A stretch of 64,000 nucleotides of DNA from Escherichia phage UPEC06: sequence record MW250786. One strand, written 5' to 3'. Below are positions 5,250 through 29,136 of this stretch, piece after piece (the first letter of the stretch is position 1; the number at the start of each line of letters is the position of its first letter). The notes beneath the pieces were generated by a model that was not told where the DNA came from, did no database searches, and saw only the letters and a list, made by a program, of their open reading frames with translations. The position numbers were made by a program, and so were the translations under genes.

Positions 5250-5510
5250 ATGTTAAAATTTCTCAAAGACCTCGTTACCTCTGCGGTGGAACCAGATAAA
5301 GCTTCCCATACAAAGTTTTGGTCTAACGTAGGTATGGCTGCTATGACTGCCGTCTTTCTATGGTATGGATTCAACAATACATTGCCTGAATGGTATGTGT
5401 GGCTTTATGCTCCTACGGTAGTGGCTCCACACCTTTTGAGTGATCTCATTAACCTCCGCTGGGGATTATCTTTGAAAAAAGATAAAGGCCCTTCTGACGA
5501 AAACAAGTAA
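5250..5510 (+). CDS. small membrane protein (holin-like topology)
   Basis: 86 aa, two hydrophobic segments, charged C-terminus, RBS-like sequence upstream. Confidence 0.45.
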   Translation: MLKFLKDLVTSAVEPDKASHTKFWSNVGMAAMTAVFLWYGFNNTLPEWYVWLYAPTVVAPHLLSDLINLRWGLSLKKDKGPSDENK

Positions 5511-5522
5511 GAGGAGAAAACT

Positions 5523-8500
5523 GTGTCGTCTAATACTGATATATTGGCACTGGTAAGTACCGAAGCAGATCTTGCTGTTGACCAGATCATTGAAGACTCT
5601 CGAAGACTTCATTTGATCGTCAACGGAACTGCAACAGAACAAGCTGTTACAGAAGATGGTAGCTTAATCCCTAGTGTACGTAAAGCGATAATTGATAACT
5701 TTTATTTTAAAACTCCACCGTTACCGTGGAGAAATGGAAGTTCAGTTATTGAATTCAATCAGTTATATGCATTTACCGATGTAAATGGCAACGTAACTTG
5801 GTGGTATGCCCCAGGTGCAACTACCAGCACTCCTGTCGTTATGCGAGACAGTCCAATCAACGACGGTAAGTTCAGACCTTTCTTCGATAAAGGTAACATT
5901 CAAGAAACTTACGCCCCTATCCTTTCCCCTGTTTTTCGTGGAAACCCTACTGTACCTCTTGCTGCTGAAGGTGATAACTCATTTACTATCGCGAACACAG
6001 CTTGGGTTAGTCGAGAAATAGAAAAAGTACGTGGTGAGGTTCTTGAAGAGTCCAGAGGTGAATTCCAAAACATTATCGTTGCAGATGATGCGAGTCTGAA
6101 AGATCTCTATGTAAGTGGAGAAACCATCTTCACTGGCGACAGGATCGCTGCTCTTGATGCCGAGTTATCTTTAAAAAGATTACGAATGACAGGGACAGAC
6201 GCAGAAATCGCATTTGAACAAAATGGCGTTCCACCCCAGGCAGGGTTAACAAAAAGAACAAATATCAAGCCTTTCCAAGTCACCACTGGTGTTGTTGATA
6301 CCGATAATATAACTGCGAGAGAGATCAAGGTTGGAAATACCTCTGTTTCCACGAATTCTCTTGATGTTGATGGATTCATGCAAGGTGACTATCTTCACTT
6401 AGAGGGTAATGCCAATAACGCAGAAGACCGCCCACAACTGATCGTTGACGGTATTGCGGAAATAAATACTCTTCGTGTGACGAACACCATTGAAGGATTG
6501 AAGGCTGACGTTGAAGGTCTGGATATTAATCCTAACAGCATTGTGGTTGAAAGAACTGCGGAGATTAAGGGAAATACAACCCTTGGTGCAGATCTTGCCG
6601 TTACTGGCAATACGGTATTGAAAAATGTAAGAATCGAAGGTACTCTCACGGGTGCTGGAATCGGTGTTGACGGGAAAGACATTTCCCCTCGTAATGTGAG
6701 TGCAACATCCGTTACTGTGGCAGAGAGCTTAAACATTACTGGACCTACTACGGCTTCCGGCGACGTTACGGTAAACAACCTGACGGTTAATGGAACACTC
6801 AGGGCCGATATCGACTTTGGAACTGCTGCTGTTGAATTCCAAGATCTGACTGTGACTAACAAGGCAACGATCAAGGATCTTGAAATCACCGGAAACCTGA
6901 CGGGAGTTACAGTCTCTGTTGATGGTGAAGCAATCTCCCCTTCTTCGGTGACAACCACAGGAAACATCGATGTTGGTAACAACATGCGTGTTCGTGGTGA
7001 TATTACTCTGGACGGTGAGTTAAGTATCCCAAGCTTAGATACTGGGGACATAACGGCTGCTGCAATTGATGGTGCGAGCCTCTCAGTTAGTGGCGACATT
7101 ACCGCAGGAACAACTTCGACCACAACGGTTAACAATCTTGTAGTCACAGGAACCACTACAGGAATCACTGTAACGGGCAATGTTGACGGACAAGACATTC
7201 TCCCATCCTCTGTAGAAACAACGTCTGTAGTGGCCTCTGAGAGAGTTACAACGGCAAACCTGACATCTACAGGTGACACTCAGGTAAATAACCTGACAAT
7301 TACTGGAACTGTAACAGGATTCGATGTAGATCTTACCGGAAAGGACATTCAGGTTAATACCTTGACGGTTACTCGCGGGTCAACTTTTGACGAGGTTACT
7401 GCTAATAACATAACCAACAATCAAAAGATTACCACAGTAGACCTTCAGGTTACTGGAAACCTGACGAATGCAGACGGTGAACAATTCTTTGCAAACGTCA
7501 CTGGTCAAGATATACTTCCTAATAGTGTGCAGTCTGCAACGTCTGTGAGAACTAAAACGCTACGTGTCGAAGAGACTAGCCTATTGGAAGGTGCTGTTAC
7601 CTTAAATGATGGTTTGACTATCACTGGTGGTAATATCACATCTGTTCAAGGTCAAGCAAGCTTCAATGACGTACAGGTATTTGGATCTCTTCTGGACGCG
7701 AATGGTAATGCCTTAGGGACAGCGGAAAGCATAAACGGTAAAGATATCTCTCCTCGTAGCGTTACTGCTCAAGTTGAGATTCAGACTACTGCAATTGTTG
7801 CTACAGGTCAAGCTGAAGTTGGTTCTTTGATTTCAACTGGACAAGTAATGGCAGGAAGCTTAGAGGTTTCAGGGATAGGTAATATTGGTCAGGTTATTAC
7901 CGACGACGTTCGTGCTGGAAAGGTAACTTCTGGTAACACCGTTATTACTCGTACTGTTGGATCTAGCGATCCTGCTCTTGAAGTTCGTGGACCAGGTGAG
8001 ATTCAGGGTGACCTTAATGTAACCGGAACTGTAACTGGTAACATTGACCTTAGCTCTCAAGACGTTAACGTTGCTTCAATGACCTCAACGGGAACAGTAA
8101 ATGCCCTTTCCATTGAGTCTCGTACATCGGTAACTGGATTGTCTGGTACATTCGGTGAAGATTATGAAGGTGCACCTACCTATGGTATAACTTCTCTTTC
8201 CGGCGCAAACATCAACAAGAACCTTCGAGTTGGTGGAAACCTGACTGTTGTTGGTAACATCTCTGGCAATATCGACTTATCTGGAAAGGCGATCGAGCCT
8301 GCATCTTTGTCTACCACGACAGCTACGTTAACGACGGCGAACATAACAGACCTGACTGTAACTGGTCAGTTTAATATCCCGACTGTACCGTTAAATGTTC
8401 AATCCCTTAGTTCTGAAAACGCTATTTCCGCAAGCAAGTTCAGCACCACACCAAAAGAAGTAAGCACCACCTCTTCTTCTTACATCCCAGACGGCTCAAC

Positions 8501-18081: not shown

Positions 18082-20736
18082 TCAGTGGCACGCCCCCCAG
18101 TTCATCCCTGTGAGGTATTCACCTGTTATGTGTACAGGAGATTTCATCATTCGTGCTGCTTGCTCTACACAACGAACAACCATCTCTCCAACTGGACAAT
18201 ACATGATCGTGTAGATTCCATTCTCATCAGGATCACACTTAAACTTCCCTTCTTTCACACAATGACCATCCAAGATCATTTTCTTAGCCAAGCAAGCTTC
18301 TACAAATTTCTTCGCGTCAGCTTCGTTGTCAAAGGTCCAAGTCTTCTTGAACTTGTGCGGCACTTCAAGCTGGTATTCATCATGATAGTAAATGATACGG
18401 CGAACACCCTCATCATACCAACCTTTCTTGACCAACTGCCAGTGCAGGAGGATACCCACCAAGTCAAACAGTGCAGCACCACCATTCTGCTGATAAGCAT
18501 TAAGCAATGAGTGTTTGGAACGAGTGTAGATCTTACGTCCATCAAGACCGTAGATGAATCGCTTACCGTTAGCTTCCCAAAACTTCTCTAATGCTTCTTT
18601 ACGACCTTTCAAGCCGATGTTGCTATCCCAGAATGCGTCGATTACTGCCTGGGCTTTCTCAAGAGTGATTCCCAGCATTGATGCAATCTTCGCCGCCTGC
18701 GCCCCGTACATGATTCCGTATGTCACGCCTTTACCTTCACCACGAGAAACCTTCTTCCCTGCCGCTTTGGTATACGCTTCTGCGTTTCGGGAGTGAGCAT
18801 CTCCAGATTCCATGATACGAAGATAAGCGCCACCATCGAAATCATACGCGCCCCATGCCGCGATCATACCTTCCAAGTTTGAACCGTCGATACCTACCTG
18901 ATATTTACCCTCGGAGGCTCTAAACAGTTCACGCATCTCTTTACCGAGAAGAACTTTCTCATCCGGCTTAGGTACGTTTGCTACGATCGTATGCTTACGA
19001 CGACCTGTGTTAGTTATTCCACTATAACGGGCCGGAAGTTTACCGTCAACCCGTAGACGTGGATGGTTAAGCCATCCGGTATCAACCTTCTCTTCTTTCA
19101 GTGGGTCAAGAACAGATCGTCGGTTACGTAAAGACAGCCATTTAACAATCTGTTTAGCCATTTCACCATCTACTCGCTCAAGGTTAGGGCAAAGACCCTG
19201 CTGATCCTTAAGTTGTGGAGATGTTGGTAATGCACGGGCTTTCTTACGGAAGAACTTGAACATCTTTTCTTTATCGGACCACTGTTTAGGGGTGATCGAT
19301 AAGCTTTTCAGAATCAGATCACGATACTCCGTCTGATCCAAATCTTCAATATATTGACGAACAATCAGGTCAACCTCACTATCTGGACGTTGTTTCTTGA
19401 ACTGATCTTTAGTTGCATCCTTTGTACGCCAAATTGTTGGAATCCACCCTGCATCACGGATCAGGAACTTCTTAACGTCGTCCTGGTTACCAATACGCAT
19501 CGGGATCATAATGTCCGGCATCTTTTGTTCTTTGATATCCATCAAAGCACGAGCCATATCTTCCGGCGGCAAAGGAACAAGCCCTTGCTGCTTAACGTTT
19601 TGTGCACGGATAAAATCACCCATTTTGGATTCATCTTCTACACCGTGTTCAACACAATACTTGATCGCGGCGGCAGTAAGAGATCCGTCAGCCTTAAACG
19701 GCTTACTTGGTGCACCTTTAAACTCTAATGCTTCCCAATTGATATTATAACCTAACTTCTCTAACCATTTCCAACCTGTACCGGAAAGAGATCCATCACC
19801 CTTGAAAGGCTTAGATGGGAATGTCGGTTGTGCTGATTTCGACATTTCTTTCTTCGGTAACTTAGGTTCAACCTCTAACTCAATGTCTGTCATCATCTTA
19901 TCGATACGATCACGGAGCTTGAGTGCTTTTTCTTCATCAAATGAAACACCCTGAATCTCTTGCTCAATCATCAGGTAGTCGGTCAGCATACCTCGACGCA
20001 AGGCATTCTTCCAGTTGATCATTTTAAACTTCTTCTGATCTTTGTCTGTTTCATCCTTAAACATGAAGCGTTTATCATCGGGCATGGATTCACAAGAGAT
20101 CTCTTTCATCAGAGCATCCCACACCATTTCGTTGATAATTACGTCTTCAATAATACGATCGCAATATTTCCAAAGTGGAAGGCCACGCCAATCTTCAATC
20201 GCCACTTTCTGGTTGGCTACTCGCATACCCCAAGCTTCAAGCCCGTGAGGGCCTACAGGCTTCATTTTACCTGTGACTGGGTTCTTTACCATCTCGGGAC
20301 AACCACGAGGCAGAGGGCGATCTGGATACAATGTACGAGACATTGACAGTGTATCAAAGATGGTCACTTGTTTACCATTAATCGTACCCATGCAACCAGG
20401 GTCTGCAAACATATCGTAAGTTGTTCCAAGCATCTTCTTAAACAACTGGAGGTCGTAGCCGAAGATGTTGTGGATAGCAATTGCCTTAGGCTCTGTGACA
20501 AACCATTCGTTTAATTCTTCAATAGTGCGAATCTTAAAGTTTTTACCTTTAGATTGGATAAATTTAACAGCTTGATCGTAACCTTCCCGTTGGGGATCAA
20601 GAAAGATGTTCCAGTTATCTTTTTTATACTCTTTAAACAGGACGCAGTGAATGAGATCAACCTCTGTCAACAGGCCGTTAGCTTCCGCATCTCCAATAAA
20701 TAAGCCTTTCATTTTTTCTCCTTCTTTAAACTCCAA
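18082..20736 (-). CDS. DNA polymerase, family A, with 3'-5' exonuclease domain
   Basis: Exo I-like FIGDAEANG; motif A-like VGIDGSNLEGMIAAW; motif B-like RGEGKGVTYGIMYGAQ; motif C-like YYHDEYQLEV. Confidence 0.85.
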   Translation of the reverse strand: MEFKEGEKMKGLFIGDAEANGLLTEVDLIHCVLFKEYKKDNWNIFLDPQREGYDQAVKFIQSKGKNFKIRTIEELNEWFVTEPKAIAIHNIFGYDLQLFKKMLGTTYDMFADPGCMGTINGKQVTIFDTLSMSRTLYPDRPLPRGCPEMVKNPVTGKMKPVGPHGLEAWGMRVANQKVAIEDWRGLPLWKYCDRIIEDVIINEMVWDALMKEISCESMPDDKRFMFKDETDKDQKKFKMINWKNALRRGMLTDYLMIEQEIQGVSFDEEKALKLRDRIDKMMTDIELEVEPKLPKKEMSKSAQPTFPSKPFKGDGSLSGTGWKWLEKLGYNINWEALEFKGAPSKPFKADGSLTAAAIKYCVEHGVEDESKMGDFIRAQNVKQQGLVPLPPEDMARALMDIKEQKMPDIMIPMRIGNQDDVKKFLIRDAGWIPTIWRTKDATKDQFKKQRPDSEVDLIVRQYIEDLDQTEYRDLILKSLSITPKQWSDKEKMFKFFRKKARALPTSPQLKDQQGLCPNLERVDGEMAKQIVKWLSLRNRRSVLDPLKEEKVDTGWLNHPRLRVDGKLPARYSGITNTGRRKHTIVANVPKPDEKVLLGKEMRELFRASEGKYQVGIDGSNLEGMIAAWGAYDFDGGAYLRIMESGDAHSRNAEAYTKAAGKKVSRGEGKGVTYGIMYGAQAAKIASMLGITLEKAQAVIDAFWDSNIGLKGRKEALEKFWEANGKRFIYGLDGRKIYTRSKHSLLNAYQQNGGAALFDLVGILLHWQLVKKGWYDEGVRRIIYYHDEYQLEVPHKFKKTWTFDNEADAKKFVEACLAKKMILDGHCVKEGKFKCDPDENGIYTIMYCPVGEMVVRCVEQAARMMKSPVHITGEYLTGMNWGACH

Positions 20737-20877: not shown

Positions 20878-21123
20878 TCAGTCTTCTATTACCTCAAATT
20901 CACTACTAAAAGCTACAATAGTCTCACCGTAGCCCATGTTCAATCGGGCAGTTGTAGGTTTGCCATTCCTAGATAGATAGTACACCCTCGCTTCGTAAAT
21001 GTCACCAACTTTTACACCGTAATCCTGTAGGTCTTTGTTATTGATATCTTTATTTTCAGCATTGATTATTCGAACACTGCTGATCTCTGAGTATACAGAA
21101 TTATCTTTCATAGGTATTACCAA
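20878..21123 (-). CDS. hypothetical protein
   Basis: 81-aa ORF. Confidence 0.4.
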   Translation of the reverse strand: MVIPMKDNSVYSEISSVRIINAENKDINNKDLQDYGVKVGDIYEARVYYLSRNGKPTTARLNMGYGETIVAFSSEFEVIED

Positions 21124-21605
21124 TCCTCTTCTGTTTGTTCATACTCGGAAGGGGTGATGAAGTAATTCTGACCCCGCTTGCACTGGTTGAAAGTCCCAAT
21201 ATACCAAGTGCCGATATCCATATTGATGAAAGTTTCTTCGTGAACAAGGATGAAATCAGCAAGATTATTGTCTGACCGTTGAGTTGCTAATAAAATATGC
21301 TCAAAATCTGCTAATGTCATGTTGTAACAGAAACCATCTTCGTCCTCCATAACCGCAACAACAGAACTACGCCCTTGAGTGAATTGACGAAACTGTAAAC
21401 GTAAATGACGATGTTCATGTTCATTCGTCTTCACCTTTTTCCGATTTTCGAAATATTCTTCGGAATAATTTGGATGCCTTAATTTCAGCTTTTCGATCTC
21501 TTCGGTAGAAAGAGCATCCTTATCCCAACCAGTAAACCATTTACCGTTATCATTAAATACCGCAGGGTATTTACGCTTACTCAAATCTTTAAACATTTGA
21601 ATCAT
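21117..21605 (-). CDS. hypothetical protein
   Basis: 162-aa ORF, overlapping neighbours. Confidence 0.5.
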   Translation of the reverse strand: MIQMFKDLSKRKYPAVFNDNGKWFTGWDKDALSTEEIEKLKLRHPNYSEEYFENRKKVKTNEHEHRHLRLQFRQFTQGRSSVVAVMEDEDGFCYNMTLADFEHILLATQRSDNNLADFILVHEETFINMDIGTWYIGTFNQCKRGQNYFITPSEYEQTEEDW

Positions 21606-21975
21606 CTCCTTCAGCTAGGCTACGAATATACTTGAAAATTTCTTCATGATCATTACCAAATGCAACATATCCATTTTCAGCATCAAGTCCATAATTATGC
21701 TCTATTTTCTCTAAAAAGCAATTTCCGTAAGTAATTTTTTCAACCAGGGGATCGGATTCTGAAAAACCCAACCCAAAAGCTTTCCAGTGCTCACGTTTAA
21801 GCTCCACGTATTCCCACGGTTTATCTCCATCGTGGAATAACACAAGGGTGTCTTGATCTTTCTTTTCTACATTGACATGACCATAAAATCCACTGGGCGA
21901 TTTGTTAAATTTCATAATCTTCTCCGTAAATATCTTTAATTTTTGAACTGAGGTATCCAGGATCGCTACCATCAT
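21589..21975 (-). CDS. hypothetical protein
   Basis: 128-aa ORF. Confidence 0.45.
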   Translation of the reverse strand: MMVAILDTSVQKLKIFTEKIMKFNKSPSGFYGHVNVEKKDQDTLVLFHDGDKPWEYVELKREHWKAFGLGFSESDPLVEKITYGNCFLEKIEHNYGLDAENGYVAFGNDHEEIFKYIRSLAEGDDSNV

Positions 21976-22237
21976 ACCACACTTCTACGAAAACCTTTTG
22001 GGAATCCTTCACGATCTTTGCCCCTGCTCTTTCAACCTCCTTGAAGAAAGATTGCAAGATGTGATCATCTAACAGGTTTACCCCATAAGCATCGTGGAGG
22101 GATTTTTCATCGTGAACATACACAACCATCTTACCATCATACGTAACTTGAATGTAATGGTCATCTTCCCAAGTAATAGCCGGAGAATCCGGCTCAAGCT
22201 TTGCAATAACACCAATAGTCAATCGGTTGTCACTCAC
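21905..22237 (-). CDS. hypothetical protein
   Basis: 110-aa ORF; overlaps neighbour by ~70 nt, start may be internal. Confidence 0.4.
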   Translation of the reverse strand: MSDNRLTIGVIAKLEPDSPAITWEDDHYIQVTYDGKMVVYVHDEKSLHDAYGVNLLDDHILQSFFKEVERAGAKIVKDSQKVFVEVWYDGSDPGYLSSKIKDIYGEDYEI

Positions 22238-23451
22238 TCTTTACCCCCTGCGATGCGTAACATTTGGATAGTTTTCTCCAGTTCTTTACGAGGTTTGGCA
22301 ACTAAACGACGTTCGTGTCGCTTCAGGAAGCCTTCTAAGAACTCTAACGGTTTAAAGGATAACACTTCCTGTACTGATTCGTCAACAGCATACTCTTTCT
22401 GGACCATACGATAAACCGGATTTTTTACAGTTACAGGAGTATAACCCTTACTGATCGCCATTTGGGTAACAACACGCTTCTTGCCATCGGTCCATGAGTC
22501 ATCGATCGGGAAAGAATCTTTGCCGTATTTTTCAGAGAATAACTTAACTGCTGTTTTTGTCAAGTCATCCTGATCCTCTTGTGACCGACTTTGACCCCAA
22601 TAATAGCCACCAGAGGTCTTAGCACGACGTTCTGAGAACAAAGCAAGGTCATCGTACTGCTCAAGAGCCAAACGCGCCAGAAGCTCGATATCGTCGCTTT
22701 CTGACAGTAGTCGGTTTGCTTCGTACTTAACCTCAAAAGTATTTGCACTATCACGATCACGGTCGAGAGTAAAAGCTTCCGGCTTAAAGTCATAATCGAA
22801 TTTAAAATTGCCTGGAACACGAGTAACGAACAGTCCATTTACAAACAGGTTGCAGTCACCACCTGTGATAGATCCATCCTCTTCTTCATTTTGGTATTCG
22901 TCCGCAGCATTATACAGTTTAGTATAAGCTTTGCCGCGATCATTCTGAATAACGACTGTACGTTCAGTGGTTGGCGCATAGTTATTCATAATTTCAGACA
23001 TAGCACAATGAGGGATGTTTTCAATGATCACAGTTACAGTATTTGAATCACGGCCTGACAAAGCCTTTTCATGGATATCTACCGCCAAAATATTCTGTTC
23101 GTATACTGTATCATAAACCATATTTGGAATCCAAAGATCATTACCATTTTCGATAACAATGTCTGCACCTTCACGAACAAGCACCAGAAGACCTACTTTC
23201 AGACCTTCACCAAACTTACCGATCTTGCTGTCATCATCACGTTTGGTTGAAACACCCATCAAAAGGCCGGAAACGGGAACAACACCGCCACGAGAGATGA
23301 TTGTGATCTTACCTTGATTACTATCATCTTTACTAAAATAAATATTGAAATCTTCTGTATCGATAGCATTTTGCATTAGTTCACGAGCACCTTGCCACCA
23401 TGACCAGTGACTGACGTAATTTTCAGTGATGCTCAATTTAATCTGTTTCAT
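22234..23451 (-). CDS. putative GHKL-type (Bergerat-fold) ATPase domain protein
   Basis: N-box-like RELMQNAIDT (ExxxNxxD) near N-terminus and Gly-rich IGKFGEGLKVG; motif-level only. Confidence 0.4.
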   Translation of the reverse strand: MKQIKLSITENYVSHWSWWQGARELMQNAIDTEDFNIYFSKDDSNQGKITIISRGGVVPVSGLLMGVSTKRDDDSKIGKFGEGLKVGLLVLVREGADIVIENGNDLWIPNMVYDTVYEQNILAVDIHEKALSGRDSNTVTVIIENIPHCAMSEIMNNYAPTTERTVVIQNDRGKAYTKLYNAADEYQNEEEDGSITGGDCNLFVNGLFVTRVPGNFKFDYDFKPEAFTLDRDRDSANTFEVKYEANRLLSESDDIELLARLALEQYDDLALFSERRAKTSGGYYWGQSRSQEDQDDLTKTAVKLFSEKYGKDSFPIDDSWTDGKKRVVTQMAISKGYTPVTVKNPVYRMVQKEYAVDESVQEVLSFKPLEFLEGFLKRHERRLVAKPRKELEKTIQMLRIAGGKE

Positions 23452-23463
23452 TTATTTGCCCTC

Positions 23464-24180
23464 TTATTTGTTGTATTGATAAATTGCTTCAGCCAAGCCC
23501 CGTGGGGTTAATGACCGGATCATCTTAGTTCTTGCTGACTTACCCCCCAACTTATTCTGCTGATCTGACCAACCAGGTGCAACAGGAACCGGAGAGGTTT
23601 TTGGAATTATAAACCCATTCCCTGTCCAAAGTCCAGTCTTTTTAGGATAAGCATCCCGTGGTTTAATGTACTGAGGAAAATAAGGGTTAACATCATTTAC
23701 CGGAAGATAACCACCATATTCCCAAGGGTTGAAATATACCGTAGGCTTTCGCCATTGTCCAGCTAAAACACTAACGGGGTTCTCGATCATGTAAGGACAA
23801 TCAAAAACAAATTCCGCAAGCCAAGCTGCAATCTTTGCAGTTCTTACCGCCTTGATCTGGAAGAAAGGATCTTTTGCTTTCTTTGATGCAAAGTGACGCG
23901 AACCACTGACAGCCATATCAGTACATGGAGGGTAGGCAAGGATCAGGTCCGGTGATGGCAATCCTAAGTTCTCTACATTTTCCATCCATTCAATATCGAT
24001 AAAAGCGTTAACGTAAGTGATGTTGGGATGAATTTCCTTTACACCTTCATAATCCCCGTGATCAGCATCGTCATAGTTGAAGCAGTAGCATTTGTGCCCT
24101 GCCTTCGCCCAGGGAAGAACATCAATCCCTGAACCAGAAAAGAGACTCCAGATAATCTTTTTATTCATCGTAGCATCCAA
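23464..24180 (-). CDS. short DNA cytosine-C5 methyltransferase-like protein (no obvious TRD)
   Basis: Motif I-like LFSGSGI (FxGxG), motif IV-like PPCT (PCQ variant), motif VI-like ENP; only 238 aa. Confidence 0.45.
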   Translation of the reverse strand: MDATMNKKIIWSLFSGSGIDVLPWAKAGHKCYCFNYDDADHGDYEGVKEIHPNITYVNAFIDIEWMENVENLGLPSPDLILAYPPCTDMAVSGSRHFASKKAKDPFFQIKAVRTAKIAAWLAEFVFDCPYMIENPVSVLAGQWRKPTVYFNPWEYGGYLPVNDVNPYFPQYIKPRDAYPKKTGLWTGNGFIIPKTSPVPVAPGWSDQQNKLGGKSARTKMIRSLTPRGLAEAIYQYNK

Positions 24181-24473
24181 ATAGTGGTTAATTTACAAAT
24201 ACACCAGAAAAGTCCGATCAGTGTAGCTAAAGTAATAACACAAGTCAATGCTATAGGTAAGAATATCGTCATAATCACTGCAAAGACTGAAATACCTATG
24301 CTTGCAATAAGATCCGGCACGAAATAGTGAAATGGATCTCTTGCCTTTTTAATGTTGTCCCATGTTATTACTACGGAGCTAAGGACGAGCCAGAATAAAA
24401 AGTACAAAATGCAAGGAAATAAAGTCATGTGTGACTTAACCATATCAAACCACATGTTGTAGAATTCAATCAT
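24165..24473 (-). CDS. small membrane protein
   Basis: 102 aa, 3 hydrophobic helices. Confidence 0.45.
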   Translation of the reverse strand: MIEFYNMWFDMVKSHMTLFPCILYFLFWLVLSSVVITWDNIKKARDPFHYFVPDLIASIGISVFAVIMTIFLPIALTCVITLATLIGLFWCICKLTTIWMLR

Positions 24474-24793
24474 TCAGTTTTCCTCGGTACAGATGCAATA
24501 ACAGCCTTTTCGACGAGATATACAATAAATCTCCCAATCCCTGCCAAAAGGAGAGCAAAGACTGTAAAAGGCAACCCATAAATAAGAACCAAAATCATCA
24601 ATCCAAAACAAGCGGAAAACAGGACTTCTGTGCCCAGCCACATCTTGGAGTAATTGATATAATTATGCCGCAATTTTAAAAACAGTCCAGCAATAGAACC
24701 TACAGAAAATATACCAATCAACCAAGGTGCGGTTACAAATTGACGGCTAAACGCCTCCCAAAAAACAAAAACATTAATGATTGCTTCGATCAT
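24470..24793 (-). CDS. small membrane protein
   Basis: 107 aa, 3 hydrophobic helices. Confidence 0.45.
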   Translation of the reverse strand: MIEAIINVFVFWEAFSRQFVTAPWLIGIFSVGSIAGLFLKLRHNYINYSKMWLGTEVLFSACFGLMILVLIYGLPFTVFALLLAGIGRFIVYLVEKAVIASVPRKTE

Positions 24794-25044
24794 AAACCAT
24801 ACCTCACTTCATATAAGAATTCATCAAGATCTTTACTGTCGTCTGAACCTTCTACTGTCAGTGGCATCAGATGTTCTTTAAGATAATAGCAAAGATTGCC
24901 GGAACTTGTTTCTACTAAACATGTTGTTTTGCAAACCATTTTAACCCTTACCGATAGTCCGGCATCTTCATGGCTGTGGACCATTGCAAGGCAACCATCG
25001 TAAAGCTTATCCTCATAAGGTAAGCAAGGATCTGGATTTTTCAT
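24790..25044 (-). CDS. hypothetical protein
   Basis: 84-aa ORF. Confidence 0.4.
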   Translation of the reverse strand: MKNPDPCLPYEDKLYDGCLAMVHSHEDAGLSVRVKMVCKTTCLVETSSGNLCYYLKEHLMPLTVEGSDDSKDLDEFLYEVRYGL

Positions 25045-25979: not shown

Positions 25980-26243
25980 TTATTCTCCCTTGTTCAATGT
26001 GGATACAAATTCGATATATGTTTCTGCATTTCGCTTATGGTAAATCCGAGGATAGCTGTCGGTTACTTTGCTGTATTTGATGTATCGCTCAAGCATACCG
26101 ACAATGCCACCAATGGAATGCACAACAACGCCTTCTTCACCAACAAAGGTAACAACCTCTACGAATGGACTATTGTCATAAGAGCGATTTACAATCAGGT
26201 CGCCGACTTCAAATTCGATTTTATCATTTTGTGAGTAGTGCAT
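25980..26243 (-). CDS. hypothetical protein
   Basis: Track ORF 25980-26663 trimmed to ATG 26243 (MHYSQND) with GGAGA RBS; longer form overlaps helicase and a terminator. Confidence 0.45.
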   Translation of the reverse strand: MHYSQNDKIEFEVGDLIVNRSYDNSPFVEVVTFVGEEGVVVHSIGGIVGMLERYIKYSKVTDSYPRIYHKRNAETYIEFVSTLNKGE

Positions 26244-26304
26244 TTGTTTCTCCTTTCTGTTTGGTATGGGAGAAGTATAGGGGAGTTTAGGAGGGGTGTC
26301 AATA

Positions 26305-26334
26305 GAAAAACCGCCCGAAGGCGGTTTATTTTTA
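26305..26334 (-). terminator. Rho-independent terminator after helicase exon
   Basis: AAACCGCC-cgaa-GGCGGTTT hairpin with T-runs on both strands. Confidence 0.65.
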
Positions 26335-26337
26335 GGA

Positions 26338-27444
26338 TCAGAAAGGCGCGTCATCGTCCCAATCATCCGGCTCTGTGTCCGGCACATCAGGAATATCACC
26401 TGCGGATTCAACGATACTTTGTTGCTCCCATGTAGGTTCTTCTGAAGGTTGTTCCATTTCTTCCATAACCTTCTTGATCTCTTCCTCTTGCTCACGCAGG
26501 AAGTTATCATCCGGCTCAGGAATATCTTCCTCTTTAATATCTGAACGAGTGAGATCACTGTTTTGTTCAGACAGAGGTTGAATCTCTGCTGCCTTAGGCT
26601 TGAAGTCTGGAGAACGATGATCATCTTCTGGATGAGCGGCATACCACTCACGAAGAGTTTCATAAGGACTCTCTAAGAAGCCCTCTGGCGGTTCCAGATA
26701 ATCACCCGTGTCAATGTCATAGAACACAGGGAATTTACCAGCACGACCGTGTTTACGGTCATCCAGAATAACAAAGTAAGAAGTGTTACGTTGTTTCATC
26801 GGGAGTTCTGGATCTTTGTTACGTTCAATACCCCACATATAATAAGTGTTTCGCATCATTGCACGACTGCCAGCAAACTGCGCTGACTGGACTTGACCAC
26901 CAAATTCATGAGGCTTGCCAGATTCAGGCTTATTAAGGTGACAGAAGCAATAATAAGTAAAGCCAAGTTCTTTTGCCAGCTTAGAGATCTCATCCGAGAA
27001 TCGTTCCAGTTCCTGGTTAGCTTCGGAAGCACTCATACCTTGCACAAGACGAGTGATCGGGTCAATAAAGATATCTTCACAACCTTCTACAATCACTGCG
27101 TGACGGATAGCACCTTTCAGTTCATCCCATACTGCACGACCATAGTTGTTATAATAGATGACACTATCACCAACCTCATCTGTAGCTTTGATCAGTTCTT
27201 CTTGCTTAAAGTAGCCACGTTGCCCTTCAAATACTTCATTACCCCAAATGTCACGGAAAGTTCCATCTTCTTGAGGAATCATTACCTTTTCTGCGTTAAC
27301 AAAGTCTTTATGATAACGCTTACCTGCGATCTTTTTACAGGTAATTTCGTTCTCTTCTTCAAACTTAAACACCGCAGCTTTTGACTTCTCAATACCCGTG
27401 ATGTGTTCAACCATTTGGTTAAGAAGTTCAGACTTGCCCATTTT
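26338..27444 (-). CDS. primase-helicase, exon 2 (T7 gp4-like DnaB-family helicase domain, acidic C-terminal tail)
   Basis: Begins at Walker A (K)MGKSELLNQ; CFCHLNKPESGKPHEFGG...ALMRNTYYMWGIERNK resembles T7 gp4 helicase motifs; ends DDWDDDAPF; no own ATG/RBS, track start is TTG two codons after a stop. Confidence 0.6.
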   Translation of the reverse strand, partial: KMGKSELLNQMVEHITGIEKSKAAVFKFEEENEITCKKIAGKRYHKDFVNAEKVMIPQEDGTFRDIWGNEVFEGQRGYFKQEELIKATDEVGDSVIYYNNYGRAVWDELKGAIRHAVIVEGCEDIFIDPITRLVQGMSASEANQELERFSDEISKLAKELGFTYYCFCHLNKPESGKPHEFGGQVQSAQFAGSRAMMRNTYYMWGIERNKDPELPMKQRNTSYFVILDDRKHGRAGKFPVFYDIDTGDYLEPPEGFLESPYETLREWYAAHPEDDHRSPDFKPKAAEIQPLSEQNSDLTRSDIKEEDIPEPDDNFLREQEEEIKKVMEEMEQPSEEPTWEQQSIVESAGDIPDVPDTEPDDWDDDAPF

Positions 27445-28200
27445 CACCGTTATGTTCAGCAAGGTTCGCTACTCCTTGCCCGTTCTCTAAGAACTGCTAC
27501 ATGTCCCCATGCAGACCAGACTATATCTTCAACCCGTAAAACAGGTGCTATGCACTTCGAGCCGCTTGGCCCTACTCTACTCGGTTCAAGAGCTTTGCTC
27601 TTGCCTTTCGATAGTCGTTGCTCCTTCCTCTCAACCGCTTTGTAATCTCTCGAACTGTATCGCGATGAATACCAAAATATTGTGCAATTTCTTTCTGAAG
27701 CATGGTTGTTTTAATGACCATATCATAAACTTCTTTTTCGAAATCATCATCGAATCGGTTTGGGTTTCTTCTTCCCGCTTTCCAACCGTGATCAACATTT
27801 TGCTTTGTAGTCATCCATTCTAGATTACTATCTGCGTTATTTTTCCTGTCTCTATCTTTATGATTAACGACAGGTAGATTATAAGGATTTTCTACATAAT
27901 GTTCAGCCACAAGTTGATGTATAAATCTCCTAGTGACCTTACCATTCTTACTTAATGAAACTCTTAGATACCCTGCACTATTCGTGTCTGGCTTTAGTTT
28001 CTTAAGTTTTCGGTACACATCTCCGCGTCTGGTAATTATGTATTGTTCAAAACCCTTTATTCTTTTCATTTCAACCTCCCTTTTAATGATAACAAAGAGG
28101 TTGAGAGGCTTGGATCAGGATTATCTGTTCTAGACTTCCCCTGAATTCACATAGTATTTAGTCGAGGCATTACTGCCAAGGCTGGCTAGACTTAATGTTT
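27445..28200 (-). mobile_element. putative group I intron (~756 nt) carrying an HNH homing endonuclease ORF
   Basis: Upstream exon ends in U; intron nt 15-20 GCCAGC can pair with exon GCUGGU (P1 with U.G); intron ends in G; phase-0 join restores Walker A; internal HNH ORF. Confidence 0.55.
27572..28069 (-). CDS. HNH homing endonuclease
   Basis: HNH motif VVNHKDRDRKNNADSNLEWMTTKQN, basic helical C-terminus, strong GGGAGG RBS; lies inside putative intron. Confidence 0.7.
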   Translation of the reverse strand: MKRIKGFEQYIITRRGDVYRKLKKLKPDTNSAGYLRVSLSKNGKVTRRFIHQLVAEHYVENPYNLPVVNHKDRDRKNNADSNLEWMTTKQNVDHGWKAGRRNPNRFDDDFEKEVYDMVIKTTMLQKEIAQYFGIHRDTVREITKRLRGRSNDYRKARAKLLNRVE

Positions 28201-29136
28201 ACCAGCACCGATGAAGTAACCTTCACCTGGACGACGACCCAAGGTAAGCTTGGTCATGGTGGGCCAAGGGAACTTCTTGCCGAGTTTAGGGATCTCATGT
28301 GCCTTTTCGCGGAACTGTGAATAAGTCGAGAAACCATCAGGCACATATTCTTTTGGCTTCATTGCAGCCCAAAACAACTGATCAGAAAGACCTTTGTTAT
28401 ACATATCGCAAGGGTCCATATCTTCTGGAATATCCACGACCTTCATTTGTGGAATTACAGAGTATACCGCTGCAACTGCATCTTTACCTTTCATGATCCC
28501 TTTGGCCTTCTCTGCTTCTGTCGCACGGTCAGCATCGAAAGCTACGATAATCTCTTCAAACTTACTCAGAAGCTTATAGTTATTCTTCTGTGATAAGTTT
28601 TGCACGGCATTTGATGTACCGTTAGAGATAGATACAACTGTGAAGTTTGGTTTACGGGTGGAACCATCCTTCGGTTTGTACTTCTCTGTCAATACCTGCC
28701 ACAAGATTGCAGCATCGTATTCACCTTCAGTGATAAAGATCATACGTTTGGAAGACTTATTTGCACCTTCCAGCCCAAACATATCACAAGCCACAGATTG
28801 GAAACCAATAGTTGTAAAGTGACCTTTCTGTTGCTTAGGGATCGTAAGATCACGCTTCTTAAAACCTACAACCTTACCTTCCAATGTGTACGGAAAATAA
28901 TGCGCCTCTGGTGTCATACCGTCTTTAGCTGACAACTTGGTACGAATACCAAATCGTTTAGCTGTCTTTTCGTCGATACCACGCTCAGGGATACTTTTAC
29001 ACGGATAAGTCAATACGTCTTCAACTGTTTCTTCCACACGAGACACACCACCACCATAATTACGTGCTACTGAAGCTTTAGGATTTTTATGTCCAAACTT
29101 ATAACCGCCAAACAGACTTTCGCCAATAGTGCTCAT
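28201..29136 (-). CDS. primase-helicase, exon 1 (TOPRIM primase domain)
   Basis: TOPRIM motifs IFITEGEYDAAIL and IIVAFDADRATE; C-terminal KLTLGRRPGEGYFIGAG resembles the DnaB/gp4 segment before Walker A; no N-terminal Cys4 zinc ribbon. Confidence 0.6.

What the first reader, a model, noticed from the sequence alone, without database searches (positions are those of the whole stretch)
22234..24180. GHKL-ATPase-like protein next to a minimal C5-methyltransferase-like protein
The 405-aa ORF has a Bergerat-fold N-box-like RELMQNAIDT near its N-terminus and a Gly-rich segment. The adjacent 238-aa ORF has C5-MTase motif I (FSGSG), a PCQ variant (PPCT) and an ENV variant (ENP), but is too short to hold a canonical target-recognition domain. 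A TRD-less C5-MTase-like enzyme could act on a non-canonical substrate or need a partner. Two 3-TM membrane proteins follow immediately downstream.
Basis: inference. Interest (0 to 1): 0.5.

Follow-up and report, generated by a model that had tools for sequence, protein, structure and literature searches.

The report
Phage Dcm-like methylase beside GHKL protein
Two neighbouring genes of an E. coli phage encode a short cytosine DNA methylase, from a family already shown to work on its own, and an ATPase-fold protein of unknown role; they sit together by shared gene order and do not appear to form a two-part system.

Summary

The functional reading does not hold. The short methylase belongs to a family found in 1,520 phage records and often annotated "Dcm-like". 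It is 55% identical over its full length to the KarlJaspers Dcm. The near-identical K42 enzyme, expressed alone, puts 5mC on retron Ec86 msDNA and triggers that retron. The catalytic residues are conserved. It therefore needs no partner and no exotic substrate.

The GHKL family sits in replication modules of about 100 phages. Of 17 loci examined, 13 have no methylase nearby and one has only a remnant. Close relatives carry the methylase without the GHKL gene. The function of the GHKL protein is unknown. Its adenine-binding Asp (G1 box) is replaced by Ser. Interest is low.

The parts
23464..24168 (-). Short Dcm-like C5-cytosine DNA methyltransferase. It is 234 aa from the ATG at 24168; the mechanical ORF from the TTG at 24180 gives 238 aa.
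24127..24141 (-). Motif I-like FSGSG (AdoMet-binding loop), residues 14-18 in TTG numbering.
   Evidence: Present in the sequence. It aligns to Pfam DNA_methylase positions 4-94. The family consensus is LFDxTG, so the FxGxG form is not conserved across the family.
23920..23931 (-). Motif IV PPCT with the catalytic Cys (C86 in TTG numbering, C82 in ATG numbering).
   Evidence: The Cys is invariant in 74 diverse homologues. It corresponds to C82 of the K42 Dcm, which was mutated in the inactive Dcm(mut).
23776..23784 (-). Motif VI ENP (ENV variant); the Glu is E133 in TTG numbering and E129 in ATG numbering.
   Evidence: E and P are invariant and N nearly invariant. The Glu corresponds to E128 of the K42 Dcm.
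22234..23451 (-). 405-aa GHKL (Bergerat-fold) protein of phage family phrog_6077; function unknown.
23356..23385 (-). GHKL N-box RELMQNAIDT (E24 is the putative catalytic base, N28 the Mg2+ ligand, and D31 is also conserved).
   Evidence: E24, Q27, N28 and D31 are invariant in 28 homologues. The box aligns to the N-box of Topo VI-B and MORC2 and of T4 rIIA.
23281..23295 (-). Degenerate G1 box SRGGV in place of DxGxG; S53 occupies the position of the adenine-contacting Asp.
   Evidence: Profile alignment to Topo VI-B VVDNGIGIP, alignment to T4 rIIA RDFGPG, and MAFFT alignments in which only the two most distant homologues keep DxGxG.
23191..23220 (-). G2 box / ATP-lid motif GKFGEGLKVG.
   Evidence: G78, G81, E82, G83 and K85 are invariant. 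The motif aligns to G-x-x-G-x-G of Topo VI-B.
22750..22764 (-). Invariant DRDRD motif (R231-D232-R233) in the second domain; role unknown. It may act as a transducer-type sensor of the nucleotide.
24165..24473 (-). 102-aa predicted ~3-TM protein, immediately upstream (in transcription) of the methylase.
   Evidence: Hydropathy. No family hit. Among the loci examined it is found only in the W70/LTH01 group.
24470..24793 (-). 107-aa predicted ~3-TM protein (phrog_15955, unknown function).
   Evidence: Hydropathy. phrog_15955 E=5.8e-9. Not a paralogue of the 102-aa protein.

Best explanation
These are two independent accessory genes of the early/replication operon of a Septuagintavirus-like phage, not a two-component system.

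(1) The 234-aa protein is an orphan, self-sufficient, AdoMet-dependent C5-cytosine DNA methyltransferase of the short phage 'Dcm-like' family. It has a DNMT3-like compact core and a mini target-recognition region of about 55 residues. Cys82 (PPC) attacks C6 of the target cytosine, and Glu129 (ENP) protonates N3. These residue roles are inferred from C5-MTase chemistry and from the mutated residues of the K42 orthologue. Its likely role is to methylate phage DNA, probably at CCWGG-type sites, to blunt restriction. As a side effect it can trigger retron Ec86/Eco1.

(2) The 405-aa protein is a GHKL-fold protein made of a Bergerat domain, a second domain carrying an invariant R-D-R motif, and a helical C-terminal domain. 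It is conserved in the DNA replication/repair modules of many unrelated phages. Most likely it is a nucleotide-dependent, dimerising clamp of the MutL/MORC/rIIA type that acts on phage DNA metabolism or counter-defence. Its adenine-contacting Asp is replaced by Ser, so canonical ATP binding is in doubt.

What is shown: the folds, the family membership, the conserved residues, and the independence of the two genes. What is inferred: the target motif, the biological role of the methylase in this phage, and everything about what the GHKL protein does.
For: Phage identity and gene order.

Methylase:
- phrog_757 E=3.6e-78.
- More than 2,325 homologues of ~230 aa and 1,016 representatives at 50% identity, present in 1,520 phage records, many annotated as Dcm-like C5-MTase.
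- 55% identity, E=1e-87, over the full length to the KarlJaspers 711-bp dcm. C82, E128, K175 and K176 map onto invariant or near-invariant C82, E129 and K176.
- K42 Dcm expressed alone raises 5mC in Ec86 msDNA by LC-MS, is toxic only with the retron, and phages that escape the retron have lost it.
- The Septuagintavirus paper already calls it a cytosine methylase via HHpred hit 3ME5_A.
- CCWGG is not avoided in the window: 105 sites against 71 +/- 8.6 expected.

GHKL protein.

Independence of the two genes:
- Of 17 GHKL-bearing loci screened by tblastn and HMM, 13 have no methylase within 3-6 kb. These are phiTE, KP13-16, phi1_175008, 4MG, GAP31, Ro1, pEp_SNUABM_01, ABPH49, Vibrio 1.175.O and K408, Pseudomonas Ab18, and two metagenomic contigs.
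- PcCB7V has only a remnant of the methylase C-terminus (62-aa ORF; 27 residues match).
- Only three loci have an intact methylase near the GHKL gene (W70 group, CR9, L012). In CR9 and L012 a small ORF lies between the two genes.
- L013 and L014 carry an 83%-identical methylase in the same primase-to-polymerase slot without the GHKL gene.
- In LNA4 the two genes are about 100 kb apart.
- Identity is discordant: CR9 has GHKL 70% and methylase 46%, whereas L012 has GHKL 55% and methylase 81%.
Against: - No methylation data exist for this phage. The target motif is extrapolated from a 55%-identical orthologue, whose CCWGG specificity was itself inferred from one msDNA site.
- The Pfam DNA_methylase hit is just below the gathering score (21.3 against 22 bits) and covers only the N-terminal 100 residues.
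- The methylase-before-GHKL order recurs in three related lineages and as a remnant in a fourth. A facultative functional link in Vequintavirinae is therefore not excluded.
- Only about 17 of some 100 GHKL-bearing genomes were inspected, and only within 3-6 kb flanks.
- The GHKL protein's activity is entirely untested. Its missing G1 Asp argues against a standard ATPase, while the invariant E24, N28 and G2 box argue for a retained ligand site.
Confidence: 0.8

Rival explanations
1. The two proteins form a functional module. The TRD-poor methylase would need the GHKL protein as a DNA-loading or specificity partner, analogous to the MORC/paraMORC GHKL ATPases linked to methylases in bacterial restriction-modification systems.
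For: The genes are 12 bp apart on the same strand, with a ribosome-binding site in between. The same order, with one small ORF between, is seen in CR9 and in metagenomic locus L012, and as a remnant in PcCB7V. The methylase has only a mini-TRD.
Against: Thirteen of 17 GHKL loci lack a methylase. Methylase-only relatives occupy the same slot (L013, L014). About 1,400 methylase-bearing phage genomes belong to groups that have no GHKL homologue. The orthologous K42 Dcm is active when expressed alone. Sequence identities of the two genes are discordant between lineages. There is no nuclease partner as in MORC R-M systems.
Confidence: 0.06
2. The short C5-MTase-like enzyme does not make 5mC in duplex phage DNA. 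Instead it acts on another substrate (tRNA/RNA as DNMT2 does, or ssDNA) or transfers another group, such as carboxymethyl from Cx-SAM.
Against: LC-MS of the orthologue's product matched a 5mC standard. The best structural matches are DNA 5mC methylases (DNMT3B/3A, 3g7u, M.HhaI). The msDNA site is a base-paired CCTGG stem.
Confidence: 0.05
3. The 405-aa GHKL protein is a short rIIA-like counter-defence protein, protecting against prophage- or defence-system-induced abortive infection, rather than a DNA-metabolism factor.
For: After its own family, the best viral structural matches are rIIA proteins (Foldseek E about 1e-7 to 1e-6, TMq 0.33-0.43). One relative is annotated RIIA. Iyer et al. 2021 (PMC7824862) describe rIIA as an N-terminal GHKL domain plus a variable C-terminus.
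Against: hhalign to T4 rIIA covers only 91 columns of the GHKL motifs, with probability 10%. The rIIA PHROG families are different from phrog_6077. The protein is about half the length of rIIA. rIIA keeps DxGxG whereas this family does not. The genomic context is replication/repair genes.
Confidence: 0.15

Closest known systems
Phage K42/KarlJaspers (Bas06) Dcm-like C5-cytosine methyltransferase, the trigger of retron Ec86/Eco1 (bioRxiv 10.1101/2023.08.16.553469)
   Same: Same short family (234 vs 236 aa) with 55% identity over the full length. The residues mutated in the inactive K42 enzyme are conserved here (C82, E128/129, K175/176 to K176/177). Both belong to phrog_757 and both are orphan phage genes.
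   Different: The host phage differs (140-kb Vequintavirinae myovirus vs 51-kb Drexlerviridae siphovirus). With 45% sequence divergence the target motif may differ. Activity is untested here.
DNMT3A/DNMT3B catalytic domain and bacterial C5-MTases (M.HhaI, M.HaeIII, E. coli Dcm; Pfam PF00145)
   Same: Same catalytic fold and the key motifs PC (IV) and ENV-like (VI). Like DNMT3, it has only a very small target-recognition region.
   Different: About 90-100 residues shorter than M.HhaI. The Pfam score is just below the gathering threshold and covers only motifs I-IV. Motif VIII (QxRxR) is not recognisable. Family motif I is LFDxTG rather than FxGxG.
GHKL ATPases of the Hsp90/sacsin, MutL, MORC and type II topoisomerase groups
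   Different: The G1 box Asp-x-Gly-x-Gly is replaced by Ser-Arg-Gly-Gly-Val in the phage clade. There are no Toprim, endonuclease, CW or client-binding domains. The C-terminal helical domain is unique and there is an invariant R-D-R motif.
T4 rIIA family (N-terminal GHKL domain plus variable C-terminus)
   Same: A phage-encoded GHKL protein of poorly understood function. rIIA proteins are the nearest viral structural neighbours outside its own family.
   Different: Not homologous beyond the GHKL motifs. Different PHROGs. Half the size. No rIIB-type partner was identified.
Bacterial MORC/paraMORC GHKL ATPases embedded in restriction-modification systems (Iyer, Abhiman and Aravind 2008; recalled from own knowledge, not read here)
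   Same: A GHKL-fold gene lies next to a DNA methylase gene.
   Different: There is no restriction endonuclease. The neighbourhood is not conserved across the GHKL family. The methylase is an orphan that works alone in an orthologue.

Membership tests
C5-cytosine DNA methyltransferase superfamily (PF00145 / TIGR00675) | Class I AdoMet-MTase fold with C5-MTase topology | tested here: met
C5-cytosine DNA methyltransferase superfamily (PF00145 / TIGR00675) | Motif IV Pro-Cys with the catalytic cysteine | tested here: met
   PPCT at residues 84-87. The Cys is invariant in 74 homologues.
C5-cytosine DNA methyltransferase superfamily (PF00145 / TIGR00675) | Motif VI Glu-Asn-Val | tested here: met
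   ENP at residues 133-135. E and P are invariant and N nearly invariant.
C5-cytosine DNA methyltransferase superfamily (PF00145 / TIGR00675) | Motif I FxGxG AdoMet loop | tested here: met
   FSGSG is present in this protein. The short family as a whole has LFDxTG, so the motif is not conserved family-wide.
C5-cytosine DNA methyltransferase superfamily (PF00145 / TIGR00675) | Motif VIII QxRxR and a full-size target-recognition domain between motifs VIII and IX | tested here: not met
C5-cytosine DNA methyltransferase superfamily (PF00145 / TIGR00675) | Score above the curated profile cut-off | tested here: not met
   Pfam 21.3 bits against gathering score 22, covering residues 11-109 only. TIGR00675 16.3 bits against 100.65.
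Short phage Dcm-like methyltransferases (phrog_757; K42/KarlJaspers Dcm) | Full-length homology at about 230 aa | tested here: met
   phrog_757 E=3.6e-78 over residues 3-237. 55% identity, E=1e-87, to bas06_0055.
Short phage Dcm-like methyltransferases (phrog_757; K42/KarlJaspers Dcm) | Conservation of the residues whose mutation inactivates K42 Dcm (C82, E128, K175, K176) | tested here: met
   The pairwise alignment maps them to C82, E129, K176 and K177 in ATG numbering. C82 and E129 are invariant and K176 is more than 90% conserved.
Short phage Dcm-like methyltransferases (phrog_757; K42/KarlJaspers Dcm) | 5mC formation without a phage partner; CCWGG-type target | not testable with these tools
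   Shown for the K42 orthologue by LC-MS and msDNA site mutants. No data exist for this phage.
GHKL ATPase superfamily | Bergerat fold | tested here: met
GHKL ATPase superfamily | N-box ExxxNxxD (catalytic Glu, Mg-binding Asn) | tested here: met
   E24, N28 and D31 are invariant.
GHKL ATPase superfamily | G1 box DxGxG (Asp contacts the adenine) | tested here: not met
   S53-R-G-G-V sits at that position. Ser or Thr is found there in all phage-clade members, and DxGxG survives only in distant P0061 and P0062.
GHKL ATPase superfamily | G2 box GxxGxG (ATP lid) | tested here: met
   G78-K-F-G81-E-G83 is invariant.
GHKL ATPase superfamily | ATP binding and hydrolysis | not testable with these tools
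   Requires biochemistry.
T4 rIIA family | Homology beyond the GHKL motifs; same PHROG | tested here: not met
   hhalign covers 91 columns with probability 10%. rIIA hits phrog_612, 2979, 3661 and others, not phrog_6077.
MORC/paraMORC-type GHKL + methylase (R-M-linked) systems | Conserved neighbourhood of GHKL with a methylase (and a nuclease) | tested here: not met
   Thirteen of 17 GHKL loci have no methylase nearby, one has only a remnant, and no nuclease partner is present.

The most novel reading that the evidence does not exclude
The phage GHKL family (phrog_6077), with Ser replacing the adenine-binding Asp but with an invariant catalytic Glu, Mg-binding Asn, G2 box and R-D-R motif, could be a new kind of nucleotide-dependent (possibly not ATP-dependent) DNA clamp. 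In the Vequintavirinae lineages where it follows the Dcm-like gene, it could cooperate facultatively with the mini-TRD methylase, for example by loading it on replicating phage DNA.
Probability: 0.05. Interest if true: 0.55.

Novelty: new member of a known kind. Interest (0 to 1): 0.15.

Why it matters
The practical value is modest.

- The methylase can now be annotated with confidence in the Septuagintavirus genomes, where it is listed as a hypothetical protein. This predicts that these phages carry 5mC, which would give partial protection from CCWGG-type restriction. It also predicts that they will be sensed by retron Ec86/Eco1, which BL21-type strains carry. Both points bear on host range in phage therapy.
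- The GHKL protein is a conserved, uncharacterised gene in the replication modules of about 100 sequenced phages from Enterobacteria, Vibrio, Pseudomonas and Acinetobacter. Its degenerate G1 box makes it a reasonable but not urgent target for biochemistry.
- The main outcome is negative. The apparent GHKL-plus-minimal-methylase system reflects shared gene order in a variable accessory slot between the primase/helicase and DNA polymerase genes.

Tried and rejected
- The GHKL protein itself has no Pfam hit. Only its homologues reach HATPase_c and HATPase_c_3.
- PADLOC gave only weak hits (TmtA E=3e-4; type II methylases and DruM E>=1e-3), which do not support membership of a defence system.
- The 'RIIA lysis inhibitor' and 'chaperon protein htpG' labels on relatives were tested. 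rIIA membership was rejected. Hsp90 similarity is at fold level only.
- The two TM proteins are not paralogues.
- Literature searches for a characterised phage GHKL protein of this family found nothing specific. The held supplements of the Septuagintavirus paper do not annotate it.
- The afdb50 fold library was unavailable, so BFVD was used instead.
- PF25856, listed as a precomputed domain for a few homologues, did not appear in the local Pfam scan and could not be identified.

Full report
**Source and context.** The region 21000-25000 is 97.6% identical to Escherichia phage W70 and 93-96% identical to LTH01, A73, A7_1 and A5-4. These are Vequintavirinae of the proposed genus Septuagintavirus. 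All genes between about 10 kb and 38 kb are on the minus strand. The two ORFs of the finding lie in the block between the primase/helicase and DNA polymerase genes.

**Observation.** Both ORFs and every quoted motif are present. Three corrections apply.
- The methylase most likely starts at the ATG at 24168, giving 234 aa. This ATG forms an ATGA overlap with the stop codon of the upstream gene, and the relatives are annotated at that length.
- The two ~3-TM proteins lie upstream of the methylase in transcription, not downstream. They are unrelated to each other.
- The GHKL gene follows the methylase after a 12-bp spacer that contains a GAGGG ribosome-binding site.

**The 234/238-aa protein: family and fold.**
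- Pfam DNA_methylase matches only residues 11-109, at 21.3 bits, just under the gathering score.
- PHROG 757 'DNA methyltransferase' matches the full length at E=3.6e-78.
- The family is large. There are more than 2,325 homologues of about 230 aa and 1,016 representatives at 50% identity. It occurs in 1,520 phage records, including Drexlerviridae, Dhillonvirus, Webervirus and rV5-like phages, many annotated 'Dcm-like C5 cytosine methyltransferase'.
- An alignment of 74 diverse members leaves C82, E129, P131, P148, Y174, W181 and P189 invariant (ATG numbering).
- About 55 conserved, well-modelled residues lie between the core and the C-terminal motif-X-like helix. The enzyme therefore has a mini-TRD, as DNMT3 does, rather than none.

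**The 234/238-aa protein: published evidence.**
- The Septuagintavirus paper already lists a DNA cytosine methylase found by HHpred (PMC11370258).
- Wang et al. (bioRxiv 10.1101/2023.08.16.553469) found that phage K42, 95% identical to KarlJaspers/Bas06, escapes retron Ec86 by losing a 711-bp dcm gene.
- LC-MS showed raised 5mC in msDNA with wild-type Dcm but not with the C82A/E128A/K175A/K176A mutant.
- Mutating the CCTGG site of the msDNA abolished defence.
- I located the 711-bp gene in KarlJaspers. It is 55% identical to the window protein over the whole length (E=1e-87), and all four of those residues align.
- CCWGG is not avoided in the window: 105 sites against 71 +/- 8.6 expected. This is compatible with protection by methylation but does not prove it.

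**The 405-aa protein.**
- It has no Pfam hit of its own and belongs to phrog_6077, of unknown function.
- 62 homologues were found. In them E24, Q27, N28 and D31 (N-box), G78, G81, E82, G83 and K85 (G2 box), R231-D232-R233 and D268 are invariant.
- 11 of 28 members hit HATPase_c_3.
- The family profile reaches Topo VI-B (E=0.05) and MORC2 (E=0.1). NCBIfam gives a sacsin ATP-binding-like domain (E=1.5e-5).
- The GHKL assignment is therefore sound.
- The G1 box does not fit. The Asp of DxGxG is Ser53, and Ser or Thr is found at this position throughout the phage clade. Only the two most distant homologues keep DxGxG.
- Among viral structures, rIIA proteins are the nearest neighbours outside the family. 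Sequence-profile comparison with T4 rIIA covers only the GHKL motifs (probability 10%), and the PHROG families differ.
- No paper describing this family was found.

**Is the pair a system?** I examined 17 GHKL-bearing loci with tblastn and family HMMs.

| Arrangement | Loci |
|---|---|
| Intact methylase directly adjacent | W70/LTH01 group |
| Intact methylase one small ORF away | CR9, metagenomic locus L012 |
| Remnant only (62-aa ORF, 27 residues matching the methylase C-terminus, just upstream of the GHKL gene) | PcCB7V |
| No methylase within 3-6 kb (13 loci) | phiTE, KP13-16, phi1_175008, 4MG, GAP31, Ro1, pEp_SNUABM_01, ABPH49, Vibrio 1.175.O and K408, Pseudomonas Ab18, two metagenomic contigs |

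- Loci L013 and L014 carry an 83%-identical methylase in the same primase-to-polymerase slot with no GHKL gene.
- In LNA4 the two genes are about 100 kb apart.
- Identities are discordant: CR9 has GHKL 70% and methylase 46%, while L012 has GHKL 55% and methylase 81%.
- Every combination of presence and absence occurs. The adjacency is therefore gene order in a variable accessory slot, which in relatives also holds Lar-like and NinX genes. It is not an obligate partnership.

**Verdict.** The domain calls are right and the proposed significance is not. The methylase is a member of a known, experimentally supported family. The GHKL protein is an uncharacterised member of a known superfamily with an unusual G1 box. 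Interest is low.

Noticed in passing
window 26338-29136 (minus strand): The primase/helicase gene is split here. The N-terminal 314-aa ORF (28192..29136) and the C-terminal 374-aa DnaB_C ORF (26338..27462) flank an HNH_3 endonuclease gene (27572..28069). In phage LTH01 the same protein is a single 681-aa CDS, 98-100% identical to the two halves. This looks like a homing-endonuclease insertion polymorphism.
   Followed up: yes
window 18082-20736 (minus strand); L001:4311-7713: The family A DNA polymerase is one intact 884-aa ORF in the window. In LTH01 it is split at residue 785/786 by a 163-aa ORF. This is the reverse of the primase/helicase pattern, so mobile endonuclease genes differ between near-identical isolates.
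   Followed up: partly
L002:3816-4004 (Pectobacterium phage PcCB7V): The 62-aa ORF annotated 'N-type ATP pyrophosphatase', directly upstream of the GHKL gene, is a remnant of the C-terminus of the Dcm-like methylase (27 residues at 67% identity; family HMM E=4.7e-11). The methylase was lost from this slot while the GHKL gene was kept.
   Followed up: yes
window 23281-23295; alignments A1 and A3: Across the phage clade of this GHKL family, the adenine-contacting Asp of the G1 box is Ser or Thr, while the catalytic Glu, the Mg-binding Asn and the G2 box stay invariant. The three most distant homologues (P0059, P0061, P0062) have a C-terminal extension with an HExxH motif, and P0061 and P0062 keep DxGxG.
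   Followed up: partly
whole window: CCWGG (the Dcm/EcoRII site) is over-represented: 105 sites against 71 +/- 8.6 in dinucleotide-preserving shuffles, and 0 of 100 shuffles reach 105.
   Followed up: partly
L013:6746-7467, L014:5936-6657, L016:4209-4577 and 5504-5905: In relatives, the primase-to-polymerase slot that holds the methylase and GHKL genes also carries Lar-like restriction-alleviation and NinX-like genes. This suggests the slot accumulates anti-restriction accessory genes.
   Followed up: no
window 25980-26663 (minus strand): A 227-aa mechanical ORF overlaps the 3' end of the primase/helicase C-terminal ORF in another frame. Relatives annotate only a short (~87-aa) gene here, so most of this ORF is probably not coding.
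   Followed up: no
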